NCBI GenBank assembly: GCA_964016885.1
Contig: OZ024754.1
Location: 22,258,001 to 22,322,000 of the forward strand
Origin: Eledone cirrhosa
Lineage: Eukaryota
Direction of reading: 5' to 3'
DNA length: 64,000 nucleotides
The notes below the pieces were generated by a model. That model was not told the origin of the DNA. It made no database searches and saw only the letters and a list, made by a program, of their open reading frames with translations. The number at the start of each line of letters is the position of its first letter. Position 1 is the first letter of the stretch. The position numbers and the translations under genes are program-made. Below, piece by piece: positions 6,188 to 64,000 of this stretch.

Positions 6188-7553
6188 TCATCATCATCTT
6201 TGTTTAACGTCCACTTTCCACACTAGCATGGGTTAGACGGGAGTTGTCCCACTTGAGACAAGGTTGGTCGGGTGACCGTGTCTCGCTCATATAGGACTAT
6301 CTGGCAGGTTTTCTACGGCTGGATGCCCTTCCTAACACAAACCACATTTAGAGTGTGGAACTGGGAACTTTTACCGTGTTACCTACACGGCCACATTACA
6401 GCGTGGACTGTGTGTTTTTTTTCTCGTGACACCTACATGATCTCGATCTCATTTATCTCATTTATTTGGACTGGATGTTGTACCAACTTTATAGAGAGAG
6501 GGTGGTGTTAGTGGGAGGATAGGGTAGGGGTAGTGGATTGGGGTGTATATTTGGTTAAGAGGTGCCTACTGACTGTAGGTTTCGCTTTGTACATAGGCAA
6601 GGCAGGTCTTCTGTATTACTGTGTAGCGCCAAAGATCTCGGTCCAGTGACATTGTCTTAGAGAGGTGCAAGTGTGTAAGATCGGAATTTATCAGATCGTC
6701 CCAGGTTTTTCTGGGTCTACCTACTCCGTAACTACCATCAATTTTGATCGCCCCCTGCACTTTTTTATACAGCTGTCGCCTTTCATGCGCATCAGGTGGC
6801 CATACAAACGTAGTCTTTTCTCGAGTAAACAGCATCTGATCCCTCTTATTCCTAATTTCTCACTTAGTTCATTTATGCTTTGCTGTTCACGTATATTACT
6901 ATTACACATCCAACGGAGCATGCATGCTTCGTTCCTTTCCAGTCTACGCAGGTCCTCTGAACGCAATGCCCATGTCTCACTGCCATGTAGCATTGCTGTT
7001 CGTATACAAGCATCATACAATCTGCCTTTCATTTTTAGAGAGAAACCTTTTGTGGCCAACAGCAGTATAAGCTCTCTGAACTTTTTCCATCCCGTTCTGA
7101 CTCTAGCTACTGTACTTTCAAAACACCCTCCGACTCTAGCTACTGTACTTTCAAAACACCCTCCGACTCTAGCTACTGTACTTTCAAAACACCCTCCACC
7201 ACTGCTGATTTCGTCACCCAGGTAACGGAAAGTGTCTACTATTTCTATAGAACCATCTGGGCAATAGAAGGGGCTAGTATCCTGTAGACACTTGCTACCT
7301 ATTGCACCTGAGCATCGGCCACATATAAAGTCTACGTTCTTAGATAGTTTACCTGTGATCCCACTACATCTTTTATGTACCCATACTTTACATTTGGGAC
7401 ATAAAATTGAATTTCTGCCTACTCCTTTCCTACACACTGAGCAAGGCCATTTCCCAAAGGGTACCTGTGCCTTATTTTCCTTTCTACAAACTAGGACTTT
7501 AGTCTTAGACAAGTTAACTTTAAGGCCTTTTGATTCTAGGCCATGCTTCCATA
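6188..7553 (-). mobile_element. 5'-truncated RTE LINE (subfamily B-like) with (GAT)n tail
   Basis: The ORF at 6721-7659 encodes the RT C-terminus (FRYLGD, LYDACIRTAMLHGSETW, RLRLYGH, GRPRKTW). The 3' UTR ends GGACGTTAAAC followed by (GAT)n. Confidence 0.92.
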
Positions 7554-7934
7554 TGTACATATATATATCGTCATCATTGTTTAACATCCATTTTTCCATG
7601 CTAACATGGATTATATATATCTTTAATAAGACAATACATGGTTGTGCTAACTCTGACAAGGAGATGGTAATGTTATAGTCCTTTTCCCTACATATCTCTC
7701 ATAGTTTTGACAAGAATTTCAGTGATCATGTAGCAGCTATTTATAACTGCCTACCTACTCGTCAATCTATAGCTATCTATTTATGTATAGTTACCAATAT
7801 ATCTATTTTCAGACAAGAACAACAAAGCCCAAATCTCAATAGCAGTCCAAAAGTAGATATATAGGTTAAATGAATTCATTATAACATAGTGGATATTTGT
7901 TTGATAAATGACTGTAAAATGAAATACAGCAATT

Positions 7935-8915
7935 GTCAGAGTGAAAAGGTCAAGGAAAATTGAGGATTCCAGTATCTTTAGGTGTCAGTAAACATAGCAA
8001 AGACTTGAATTTTAGTGAATAGGAAAGAAAAGTCCCAGTTGCCATCAAGGAAGTGGCCATGCTCAATATGCAGAAAAGTCGTAGTTGAGAACGCTATACA
8101 ATGCTCTCAATATGGGTACACAAGAAGTGTAGTGGGATCACAGGCAGCATAACAGAAAATGTCAACTTTGTATGTGACAGATATACAGGAATAGGTGGTA
8201 ATAAGAGCATCAGGGAAATAAACTTTTTTCCAGTCTCAATAAGGATCCATAGAAATGGTTGATAGCTTCTGCTACCTAAGTGATTTAATTTAGCAATGTT
8301 GGAGGTTGCTTTGAGAGTATAGTAATTAAAAAATATTTAGGGAGCTACTATATCTGTTGACAATGAAAGGTTTCTCTCTATGAATGAAAGGCTGGCTGTA
8401 TGATGCCTATATGTGATGTTGCATAGTAATGAGATATGGGCAGTGAATGCAGGGGAAAGGGAAAGACAAAGAACATGCTTTGGTGGATGTGCATGAATGA
8501 CAAAACGTAGATGAGCTGACAGAAAAGCTAGGTATAAGAGGAATTGGATGTAGTTTGCAGGAAAAAAGACAGTGCTGGTATGGACATGTGATGTGTATGG
8601 ATGATGATGATCGTTGGGTGAAATGCTAAGAGACTAGGTATAAGAGGAATTAGATGTAGTTTGTAGGAAAGACAGTGCTGATATGAACATGCATTGTGAT
8701 GTGTATGGATGATGATTGTTGGGTGAAGTGCTAAGACATCCCAGTGGAAGGAAGCTACTGTAAAGGCTAATCACGGAAGACTTGGCAGAAGTTGTGAGCT
8801 GATTGCAAATTGCTGAAGCTCCCAGAGGAGATGGCGAAAGGGATGAAATGAGTGGAGAAATGGTGTGTTGGAAAAGACTTATCTAACTCAATATGGACAG
8901 AAAACAATGATGATA
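7935..8915 (+). mobile_element. Old, degenerate RTE LINE fragment
   Basis: Recognisable but stop-riddled homology to the younger RTE copies: TGGGTACACAAGAAGTGTAGTGGGATCACAGG, GATAGCTTCTGCTACCTA, TGGTATGGACATGTGATG. Confidence 0.8.
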
Positions 8916-8946
8916 ATTATATTCATGATTGTACAGCTTTTCTCAC

Positions 8947-61070: not shown

Positions 61071-61440
61071 ATGTATATATATACATATATGTATATATAT
61101 ATATTATGTATATATATATATATATAATTATATATATATATATATGTATATATATATATGTATATATATATATATATGTATATATATACATATATGTATA
61201 TATATATATACATGTATATATATATATATATGTATATATATATATACATGTATATATGTATATGTATATATATATACATATATATATGTATACATGTATA
61301 TATATATATATATGTATATATATATATATATGTATATGTATATATATATATATATATGTATATATATATATACATGTATATATGTATATGTATATATATA
61401 TATACAATATATACATATATATATATATATATATATGTAT

Positions 61441-62812
61441 ACACAGTGAGTGAATGCAATGCAACTGCCGTGCGGGTTGTACGTATATGGATGATCTGAC
61501 GGTCAGAGAGGGGGTCGCGAGGACTGCGGATTGACCTTTGGCCTGCCTGGGGACGATTATCTTTCGACATCAATGTAGCAAGCGATGACCCAGATCTTAC
61601 CAGAGATCATTGGGTCCTGAAGCAATCCTGCAATCACCGCGCCTGGTCATATGAGCAGACTACAACCACAGAGATCATTAATTTAGAATCCTCGCTCATC
61701 ATCTATAATTTCCATTTGTAGCACCTTAAGATGGGTTAATCCACCATAATAATATGATCACCCTTCAGCATAACTTAGTTAAACTACTCTATAGTTAATA
61801 CACTTTATGCTTTAAAAGTCTCTCTTGGAAGGTGCACTTCACCATAGAATTTAGGGTCTATATTGGGACACATTTTAATGGCTAGATATGGAAACCCCAG
61901 AGTTACCTCCCCGCATGCATTAACTCCCCTTAGCCACACACACACTTCCGGTATTCAATGGCGTTTCCCGAAACGTAACAACCTCCTGTATCGAACTAAA
62001 GAACACCAGACTACGACCTCTAACTGGATTGTCGTGGATTATGTGAAAGGCATATAATCGAAATATACACTCCCCTGACCATGAAAATGCCGAAGTACAT
62101 GAAATACTTGCCATCCCTGCGCTGTTCATCTCCAATACTTATAACACTTTTAATGCTTGCACTATCTTTAATGCTTATAATATTTCTCCACACACAGACT
62201 ATATCAATCATATAAAGATTTTGCACCAGATCTACCAACCTAACACTCTTATTTACCTACCTAAGTGCCTCTACCACACATATCTCTCTGCCACACTATA
62301 TAAACAAGACGCACATGCGCGCCACACATATAACATTTGCACTATATAACCACTTATCTTCATGTTGTACTTTAACCTATATCTTTGATTTTTGATTGTA
62401 CCCTATTAATATAAATGTAATCTCGAAGTGTGTACTGCCACTCTAAATTCTGTAATGAATGTTGACCCACAATGTTTGAATATGTATCAATGTTTGAATA
62501 TGTATTGGTATGTCTCTCGGCTGAAAAGGAGGTCATATAACTGTCCATGCATTAATAAATTGCTCCGAAGAATCCAAACCTCGGTTTGGAGGAAACAGCT
62601 GAAAGCACAATAATGTTTTGAGCAGTTCTTTGATTCTTATATTTCATATAACTGCTCTGTAAATCATCTGATGTTTTTACATTGAGCTACTTAACTTACT
62701 GGTAATAAGGTAGTAATACATTACTGCCTACCACTATTTAGGGTGTGTGTAAAATACTTACAACTGCTTAAGGTTTTGTATTTGCATAACCATAAATAGT
62801 ATAACTAATACT
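61441..62812 (+). mobile_element. Probable decayed Penelope-like element 5
   Basis: A unique island between (TA)n arrays. It weakly resembles the GIY-YIG C-terminus (KEH...W.VV..VKAYN...E.HEIL) and has a hammerhead-like motif at 62561-62607. Confidence 0.5.
62561..62607 (+). ncRNA. Variant or degenerate hammerhead motif
   Basis: TGCT CCGAAGA ATCCAAACCTCGGTTTGGAG GAAAC AGCTG AA AGCA. Confidence 0.55.
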
Positions 62813-64000
62813 ATGTATATATATATATATATATGTATATATATATATGTATATATATATATATGTATGTATATATATATATGTAATATATATATATATA
62901 TATGTATGTATATATATATATGTATATATATATATATATATATGTATGTATATATATATATGTATGTATATATATATATGTATGTATATATATATTATGT
63001 ATTATAATATATATATATATATATATATGTATATATATATATATGTATATATATATGTATATTATATATATATGTATATATATATATATATATATATTGT
63101 ATATATATATATATATATATATATGTATATATATATATGTATATATATATATATATATATATATGTATATAATATATATATATATGTATATATATATATA
63201 TATATGTATATATGTATATATATATGTATATATATGTATATATATATATATGTATATATATATATATGTATATATATATATATGTATATATATATATATG
63301 TATATATATATATGTATATATATATGTAATATATATATATACATATATGTATATATATATACATATATGTATATATATATATATATATGTATATATATGT
63401 ATATATATATATACATATATATATATATACATATATTATATATATATATACATATATATATATATATAATATATATATTATATAGTATATATATATATGT
63501 ATATATGTATTATATATATGTATATATGTATATATATATATATGTATATATATATGTATATATATATATATGTATATATATATGTATATATATATATATG
63601 TATATATATATGTATATATATATGTATATATATATATATGTATATATATATGTATATATATATATATGTATATATATATGTATATATATATGTATATATA
63701 TATATATATATGTATATATATATGTTATATATATAGTATATATATATGTATATATATATATATATGTATGTATATATAGTATATGTATATGTATATATAT
63801 ATGTATATATATATGTATATGTATATATATATATATGTATATGTATATATATATGTATATATATATGTATATGTATATATATATATATATATATGTATAT
63901 ATTATATGTATATATATATGTATATATATATTTATATATATATATGTATATATATATATATTATATGTATATATATATATATGTATATTATATATTATAT
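62813..64000. repeat. (TA)n/TATG array running off the window
   Basis: Directly visible. Confidence 0.95.

What the first reader, a model, noticed from the sequence alone, without database searches (positions are those of the whole stretch)
6188..64000. Self-seeding microsatellite landing pad shared by many unrelated element groups
Seen: nearly every element from 9.9 kb onward (RTE-A/B, BovB-like RTE, R4/Dong-like, PLEs, Helitron, Tc1/mariner, SINE) abuts (TA)n/(TATG)n. At least one element carries such repeats in its own 3' UTR, and another element then inserted there. Known: PLEs and R4/Dong elements favour microsatellites, mariners use TA and Helitrons use A|T. Inference: this is a positive-feedback locus where each insertion supplies new target. 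With four large inverted repeats and copies on both strands, it could also act as a TE trap that produces small RNAs.
Basis: partly seen in the sequence, partly recalled or inferred. Interest (0 to 1): 0.7.

Follow-up and report, generated by a model that had tools for sequence, protein, structure and literature searches.

The report
Transposon train in one TA microsatellite
About twenty jumping genes of unrelated kinds sit nose-to-tail, separated only by TA/TATG repeats that all face the same way, likely because one repeat array was split again and again; the tested families land in such repeats across the whole genome, so this is an extreme case of a genome-wide habit rather than a special trap.

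Summary
Observation confirmed: 39 of 44 element ends from 9.9 kb on abut TA/TATG repeats; the exceptions are one Tx1/MITE block. The preference belongs to the families, not the locus: other copies abut such repeats in 74-100% of cases in eight families, against 7.5% of random positions; a Tx1 control gives 1 of 20. Specific to the locus: all 18 spacer arrays over 57 kb share one strand polarity (background neighbours 57%), and the three orientation-locked families obey it, pointing to one ancestral array repeatedly split. Seeding is partly shown: the BovB-like 3' UTR microsatellite is family-wide and is broken in 8 of 39 other copies. But most flanking arrays look like targets, not tails, so 'each insertion supplies new target' is unproven. 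Most inverted repeats are ordinary Penelope-type structures, found elsewhere too; nothing supports a small-RNA trap. Sequence beyond 53.6 kb looks low-depth and precedes a gap. Microsatellite targeting and seeding are in print; this scan found like trains on TAA repeats elsewhere in this genome. New variant; interest 0.38.

The parts
6188..7552 (-). RTE-B copy with (GAT)n tail; 3' flank AT-rich but not a microsatellite; outside the polarised train
   Evidence: PF00628; self-BLAST; flank test
8948..9880 (-). RTE-B fragment
9880..12919 (+). Non-autonomous Helitron-like element: 5' TC, 3' hairpin and CTAG, STPR repeat
   Evidence: PF21107; termini; 14 of 19 other copies followed by (TA)n
12936..16065 (+). 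PLE1, Penelope-like, with 248-bp inverted terminal copy (13094-13341 / 15821-16068)
   Evidence: class from structure and recalled GIY-YIG motif, no Pfam hit
16086..16202 (-). Short high-copy element Y between TA arrays; class not determined
16392..17418 (-). RTE-A copy 1, 5'-truncated, 96% to copy 2
17478..18538 (-). Tc1/mariner-like element, about 27-bp TIRs, TA on both sides
   Evidence: no Pfam hit
18539..19150 (.). TA/TATG array, G on + strand
19151..19375 (-). R4/Dong-like 3' fragment, (ACAT)n on both sides
19676..21754 (+). PLE2, 3' part; copies identical over 195 bp genome-wide
21778..24209 (+). PLE3 with about 1.1-kb inverted arms (21778-22921 / 23044-24120)
24210..26789 (.). 2.6-kb TA/TATG array, 378 G to 0 C on + strand
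26790..28377 (+). Two tandem copies of non-coding element X (26790-27340, 27802-28377), sharing the 3' stem-loop of the BovB-like RTE
28378..31487 (.). 3.1-kb TA/TATG array, 462 G to 6 C
31488..33470 (+). RTE-B copy with 383-bp inverted duplication (32107-32489 / 33088-33470)
   Evidence: PF00078, PF00628
33573..36200 (-). R4/Dong-like LINE, 5'-truncated, (ACAT)n on both sides
   Evidence: PF00078, PF13966; RT closest to R2 structures
36376..40079 (+). BovB-like RTE (APE, RT, C2H2 fingers) with compound (TG)/(TAT)/(TA)/(T) microsatellite 3' UTR (39845-40030) and terminal stem-loop
40265..43513 (+). PLE4 with 1074-bp inverted arms (40354-41427 / 42440-43513)
43546..46789 (+). BovB-like copy 2, 5'-truncated, its UTR microsatellite split by RTE-A copy 2
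44298..46570 (-). RTE-A copy 2, nested in the BovB-like UTR
47416..47623 (-). SINE (tRNA-like head by recall); only its 3' end abuts TA
47856..53478 (.). MITE-like fold-back element, not in a microsatellite, split by Tx1
47924..52657 (+). Tx1/L1-like LINE, 1161-aa ORF2, 15-bp target duplication; counter-example to TA targeting
53590..58837 (.). TA/TATG arrays (3.2 and 1.8 kb) split by an RTE-B 3' tail (56834-57071, +); likely low-depth sequence
58838..61068 (+). RTE-A copy 3: 0 substitutions and 11 homopolymer indels against copy 2
61446..62811 (.). Unclassified element Z between arrays
62812..64000 (.). TA/TATG array running on past the window; 200-N gap 3.2 kb beyond the window's end; train ends about 8.7 kb beyond it

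Best explanation
The region is a train of about twenty transposable elements from families that sit in TA/TATG microsatellites genome-wide, and it likely grew from one ancestral TATG-polarised array that successive insertions split and that then expanded. Shown: family-level flank preference; strand-locked targets for three families (R4-like element in ACAT; BovB-like RTE and element X in ATGT); uniform array polarity over 57 kb; a microsatellite-bearing UTR that attracts later insertions. Inferred: every insertion leaves target on both sides, slippage lengthens the pieces, long arrays draw more hits, and selection tolerates the pile. Feedback is therefore likely but modest, and works mainly through array splitting and growth plus the BovB-like UTR, not through each element bringing a new tail. 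No silencing function is implied.
For: Flanks of other copies: R4-like 26 of 29, Helitron 14 of 19, mariner right 16 of 18 and left 14 of 19, PLE2 17 of 19, X 17 of 19, PLE3 18 of 19, PLE1 8 of 8 and PLE4 9 of 11 (10 and 7 hits dropped as inner ends of inverted repeats); Tx1 1 of 20. Baselines: 7.5% of positions, 22.8% of TA sites, 21.5% of A|T sites. Polarity: 20 of 21 merged arrays from 16.2 to 72.7 kb carry G on +; the exception lies inside PLE4; two are BovB-internal, leaving 18 spacers; background neighbours agree in 91 of 160 (0.569^17 = 7e-5, post hoc). Arrays just outside are mixed. Strand locking elsewhere: R4-like C-type 27 of 29; X G-type 11 vs C-type 1 of 19; BovB-like 21 vs 2 of 31; all six in-window copies fit. 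UTR: broken in 8 of 39 other copies, 4 seen from both sides, against no two-sided insertion in 46,151 bp of ORF (p about 0.001). R4-like copies face an X/BovB 3' end across pure repeat in 9 of 29, against 4 of 81 background ATGT arrays (p = 7e-4). Polarised trains with 3.4-4.0-kb arrays occur at C6, C28 and C4.
Against: Loci were the best-scoring 20-30 of 40 scored hits, so young and close to the window's copies. RTE-A is a weak follower: by eye 4-5 of 10 ends. X has the same motif on both flanks in 40 of 63 copies, so its arrays are mostly targets. R4-X pairing could come from a shared target alone. ORF insertions above about 1.2 kb would look like truncations, and several UTR breaks lie in the TAT tract, not TA. 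By a leave-one-out measure the window's 10-kb bins hold 12-73% young repeats against a background mean of 22% and maximum of 65%, so density is high but mostly within range. In the 10 regions picked for long arrays, neighbours agree in only 42 of 71. Mis-joins through long arrays would also keep polarity.
Confidence: 0.68

Rival explanations
1. Shared target without feedback: families independently prefer TA/TATG, array lengths are heavy-tailed through slippage alone, and one long array collected many hits.
For: X flanks match on both sides; PLE, mariner and Helitron flanks are mostly pure TA with no own tail; safe-haven targeting is proposed for MuTAnT (PMC4486113, passages).
Against: Excess breaks in the BovB-like UTR; R4-X/BovB pairing; MuTAnT occupied sites averaged 15 repeats per flank against 9 at empty sites, so insertion itself can add target.
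Confidence: 0.17
2. Assembly artefact in part: units, above all beyond 53.6 kb, are mis-joined or arrays inflated.
For: RTE-A copy 3 has 0 substitutions and 11 homopolymer indels against copy 2; distal arrays have 11-27 phase breaks per kb against 0-3 proximally; a 200-N gap lies 3.2 kb past the window.
Against: Most spacers are 23-630 bp; proximal inverted arms are clean (1 mismatch in 1074 bp); three other RTE-A copies are identical over 421 bp; copy 3's flanks are not a fold-back of copy 2's; arrays of 300 bp or more elsewhere have a median of 14.6 breaks per kb; family-level results come from many chromosomes.
Confidence: 0.08
3. A piRNA/siRNA trap locus: the pile is kept because its inverted repeats and two-strand content yield silencing RNAs.
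For: Four local inverted repeats of 96-99.9% identity; many young families on both strands.
Against: Inverted pairs recur at 9 other sites among 38 PLE4 hits, 10 of 18 PLE1 hits are such inner ends, and the structure is standard for PLEs (PMC8557442, passages). Strand use follows target polarity.
Confidence: 0.05
4. Array polarity reflects strand-biased mutation (transcription or replication), not one ancestral array.
For: Polarised arrays in the flanks lean G, 22 to 12. Gene context was not determined.
Against: Flanking arrays alternate in polarity, and a C-type array follows directly at 73.2 kb; genome background is 160 G to 158 C.
Confidence: 0.02

Closest known systems
R4/Dong microsatellite-specific LINEs (PMC7998251 and PMC3812793, passages)
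   Same: RT of the R2-like type plus recalled RLE motifs; both flanks in a microsatellite; fixed orientation.
   Different: Target here is (ACAT)n; the passages give (TAA)n for Dong. ACAY is given for Waldo elements, which are APE-type.
PLEs with (TA)n bias and inverted pseudo-LTRs (PMC8557442, passages)
   Same: (TA)n 3' flank, inverted 5'-truncated copy, short extension at one end.
   Different: Four families co-occur with RTE, RLE and DNA elements in one array; clade not determined here.
Microsatellite seeding by LINEs: squamate CR1/Rex (PMC6050309, passages), shrimp Penelope and RTE-BovB (PMC7878876, passages), an octopus RTE with a microsatellite 3' UTR (PMC9115989, passages)
   Same: A LINE carries microsatellites in its 3' UTR and spreads them.
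   Different: Here the seeded UTR is shown to take secondary insertions in excess; the passages read do not test that.
TA-targeting DNA transposons MuTAnT, Micron, TAFT; MINE-1 Helitrons (PMC4486113, PMC3812793, passages)
   Same: DNA elements in (TA)n beyond dinucleotide expectation; repeat gain at occupied sites.
   Different: Single plant or insect families, not multi-class trains.
RTE tail-guided insertion (PMC6007223, passages)
   Same: The 3' repeat matches the target motif and could fix orientation (BovB-like and X in ATGT).
   Different: The match here runs through whole arrays rather than one or two bases.
TE hotspots in Octopus vulgaris (PMC13282606, parts 1-2 of 3 read)
   Same: Same active groups (RTE, Dong-R4, Tx1, Penelope, mariner, Helitron); hotspots likened to niches.
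   Different: No microsatellite mechanism is offered in the text read; supplement not read.

Membership tests
R4/Dong clade LINE | RT of the RLE-type (R2-like) group | tested here: met
   Best PDB hits are R2 proteins, E 3e-19, against 1e-4 for L1
R4/Dong clade LINE | C-terminal zinc knuckle and restriction-like endonuclease | tested here: inconclusive
   PF13966 hit; PD..D motif by eye and recall; no PDB hit; homologues unnamed
R4/Dong clade LINE | Sequence-specific microsatellite target | tested here: met
   ACAT after 26 of 29 3' ends
Dong in the strict sense | (TAA)n target | tested here: not met
   Target is (ACAT)n
R4/Dong clade LINE | Placement in an RT tree | not tested
   No named references at hand
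RTE clade (BovB-like, RTE-A, RTE-B) | APE and RT in one ORF, 3' repeat tail | tested here: inconclusive
Penelope-like elements | Inverted or tandem pseudo-LTRs | tested here: met
Penelope-like elements | PLE RT and GIY-YIG endonuclease | tested here: inconclusive
   No Pfam hit for five ORF fragments; motifs by recall
Helitron | 5' TC, 3' hairpin plus CTRR, A|T site | tested here: met
   3' end shared by the other copies
Tc1/mariner | Short TIRs and TA on both sides | tested here: met
   the transposase fragment had no Pfam hit
piRNA cluster / TE trap | Production of small RNAs | not testable with these tools
   No small-RNA data available here
piRNA cluster / TE trap | One-strand bias of inserts (uni-strand type; recalled) | tested here: not met
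   Both strands used, set by target polarity; dual-strand type not excluded
Microsatellite-seeding LINE | Microsatellite at the same place in the 3' UTR of all copies | tested here: met
   All 24 other copies; mean simple UTR 285 bp in 32 of 39 copies

The most novel reading that the evidence does not exclude
TA/TATG arrays are a self-amplifying niche in this genome. ATGT-strand RTE elements build and lengthen arrays and export new ones in their UTR; an R4-like family retargeted to ACAT lands on the opposite strand; PLEs, mariner and Helitron fill in. One seed microsatellite thus grows into a polarised train of more than 57 kb, which would explain both TE hotspots and microsatellite richness in octopods.
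Probability: 0.35. Interest if true: 0.6.

Novelty: new variant of a known kind. Interest (0 to 1): 0.38.

Why it matters
If right, TE hotspots in octopod-like genomes need no adaptive or silencing explanation: they follow from many unrelated families sharing one growing target. Array polarity is a simple marker for tracing a cluster back to one seed. An R4-like family with an (ACAT)n target was not found in my searches and would be a natural case of target switching. In practice such trains break assemblies and confound read mapping.

Tried and rejected
The repeat finder was swamped by microsatellites and was replaced by masked self-BLAST. The genome search with the RTE-A 3' end found nothing because common words are skipped; RTE-A, RTE-B and SINE ends were read from held loci instead. 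The search for RTE-A 5' flanks was uninformative: most copies continue upstream. Rfam gave 0 hits at gathering score. Sequencing runs: no RNA holder listed. Laying four runs on 8.9-16.2 kb gave only short contig pieces and 150-base reads, so contiguity is untested; nothing beyond 16.2 kb was laid. Coverage by a library made from the window (52% against 4%) is circular and not used as evidence; leave-one-out values are given instead. Phase-break density alone does not mark poor sequence. Rejected: Tx1 as a guild member (its own (TATC)n flank in 16 of 20 copies); a fold-back read artefact for RTE-A copy 3; inverted repeats as locus-specific. A paper search for cephalopod plus microsatellite plus transposable element plus piRNA cluster found 0 papers. 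Host-gene context and target duplications inside arrays were not resolved.
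Full report
Setting. The window is G000:C14:22258001-22322000 in a 3.0-Gb animal genome. An octopod is my inference from recalled RTE tails and from earlier notes of this scan; no tool named it. From 9.9 kb to about 8.7 kb past the window's end lies a chain of elements separated by TA/TATG arrays, with one interruption: a MITE-like element split by a Tx1-like LINE at 47.9-53.5 kb.

Observation. 39 of 44 hand-placed element ends from 9.9 kb on abut a TA-type repeat, against 7.5% of positions in 32 random 10-kb stretches. 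TA-type arrays fill 24% of the window against 6.6% in 52 stretches. The nesting of RTE-A copy 2 in the BovB-like UTR is real; the unsplit UTR form is seen at L267. Pfam supports the LINE domains and the Helitron STPR repeat; PLE and mariner fragments had no hit.

Family or locus? I searched the genome with each family and scored the best 20-30 of 40 scored hits, leaving out the window's own. Microsatellite flanks: R4-like 26 of 29, Helitron 14 of 19, mariner 16 of 18 and 14 of 19, PLE2 17 of 19, X 17 of 19, PLE3 18 of 19, PLE1 8 of 8, PLE4 9 of 11; 10 PLE1 and 7 PLE4 hits were dropped as inner ends of inverted repeats. Mariner and Helitron exceed their dinucleotide baselines of 22.8% and 21.5% (p at most 4e-6). 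Tx1 gives 1 of 20 and has (TATC)n instead. By eye, 7 of 11 RTE-B ends and 4-5 of 10 RTE-A ends are followed by TA-type repeats after the GAT tail. So the refuting case 'enrichment equals TA density' fails, but the preference is a family trait.

What is local. Arrays have a strand: TATG or CATA. From 16.2 to 72.7 kb, 20 of 21 merged arrays carry G on +; the exception is inside PLE4 and two are BovB-internal, leaving 18 spacers of one polarity. Background neighbours agree in 91 of 160 pairs, giving 7e-5 post hoc. Flanking arrays are mixed. Three families are strand-locked genome-wide: R4-like C-type in 27 of 29, X G-type 11 to 1, BovB-like 21 to 2; in the window both R4-like copies lie on minus and both X and both BovB-like copies on plus, as this predicts. 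Arrays beside unlocked families share the polarity too, which points to one ancestral array. Of 10 regions of 20 kb chosen for long arrays, four hold arrays of 3.4-4.1 kb and three show runs of 6-7 same-polarity arrays with the same families; overall agreement there is only 42 of 71. The window is the longest such train I saw, not the only one. Young-repeat density by leave-one-out is 12-73% per 10 kb, against a mean of 22% and a maximum of 65%.

Is it self-seeding? For: the compound microsatellite UTR is in all 24 other BovB-like copies. Among 39 copies it is broken in 8 (L077, L080, L085, L091, L092, L095, L256, L269), four seen from both sides, while 46,151 bp of upstream ORF show no two-sided insertion; 16 copies start short, 6 without a microsatellite flank. 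Counting those 6 as insertions, p = 0.0014 with 10.5 kb of UTR (the measured mean gives 11.1 kb). R4-like copies face an X/BovB 3' stem-loop across pure repeat in 9 of 29, against 4 of 81 background ATGT arrays and 0-1 of 18-20 in seven other families. L273 on C2 shows a BovB-like, X, R4-like chain. Against: X has the same motif on both flanks in 40 of 63 copies, so it mostly lands in existing arrays; large ORF insertions could hide as truncations; several UTR breaks are in the TAT tract; pairing may reflect a shared target. Feedback is likely, but 'each insertion supplies new target' is not shown.

Small-RNA trap. Three of the four local inverted repeats belong to PLE-type elements. PLE4 forms opposite-strand pairs at 9 other sites among 38 hits, and such structures are standard for PLEs (PMC8557442, passages). 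Nothing here supports a trap; it is untested rather than refuted.

Assembly. RTE-A copy 3 differs from copy 2 by 0 substitutions and 11 homopolymer indels, and a 200-N gap lies 3.2 kb past the window, so sequence beyond 53.6 kb is likely low-depth and its array lengths uncertain. Three other copies are identical over 421 bp, so a young family explains the identity. The proximal part looks clean. Contiguity remains untested.

Known context. Microsatellite targeting is described for Dong, Waldo, MINE-1 and Micron (PMC3812793, passages), Dong in (TAA)n (PMC7998251, passages), RLE elements generally (PMC4640811, passages), PLEs and MuTAnT (PMC4486113, passages). Seeding is described in squamates (PMC6050309, passages), shrimp (PMC7878876, passages) and for an octopus RTE UTR (PMC9115989, passages); tail-guided RTE insertion in PMC6007223 (passages). 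Octopus TE hotspots are reported without a mechanism (PMC13282606, parts 1-2 of 3; supplement not read and may bear on targets). Ten searches found no account of a multi-class polarised TA/TATG train or an ACAT-specific R4-like family; Repbase and most subscription journals were not covered. Earlier notes of this scan describe PLEs in TA repeats and strand-ruled trains on TAA repeats in this genome; I did not check those loci.

Verdict. Real, well above chance, mostly the sum of known habits; new in its breadth, in the polarity evidence for one seed array, and in the ACAT target. New variant of a known kind, interest 0.38.

Noticed in passing
window 47924-52657: Young Tx1/L1-like LINE with a 1161-aa ORF2; 40 of 40 listed hits are 100% identical over the last 278 bp; most copies end in (TATC)n, but this one has none and a 15-bp target duplication.
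   Followed up: partly
window 26790-28377: Non-coding element X (about 575-600 bp) shares its 3' stem-loop with the BovB-like RTE and often forms head-to-tail tandems; likely its non-autonomous passenger.
   Followed up: partly
L273 (G000:C2:360779000-360788000): A 3.9-kb insertion, by eye another RLE-type element, sits in the TAT tract of a BovB-like UTR, followed by X and the R4-like element.
   Followed up: partly
window 39398-39834 and 43545-44021: The BovB-like ORF ends in C2H2 zinc fingers (PF13894).
   Followed up: no
window 6724-7698, 31899-32792, 44600-46558: RTE-A and RTE-B carry a PHD finger after the RT domain (PF00628).
   Followed up: no
window 21640-21665 and 43424-43460: Hammerhead-like cores by eye in PLE2 and PLE4 3' regions; Rfam gave no hit at gathering score.
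   Followed up: no
window 24210-31487: The long arrays have higher-order periods of 24-30 bp with long runs of exact units, like minisatellites born from microsatellites.
   Followed up: no
window 7099-7197: Exact in-frame 33-bp triplication inside an RTE-B copy.
   Followed up: no
window 16086-16202: Short element Y gets a summed contig depth near 200,000 in two runs and occurs in 10 of 52 random stretches.
   Followed up: partly
L058-L057 (G000:C14:22236240-22238250): A tandem run of element X copies about 20 kb upstream of the window.
   Followed up: no
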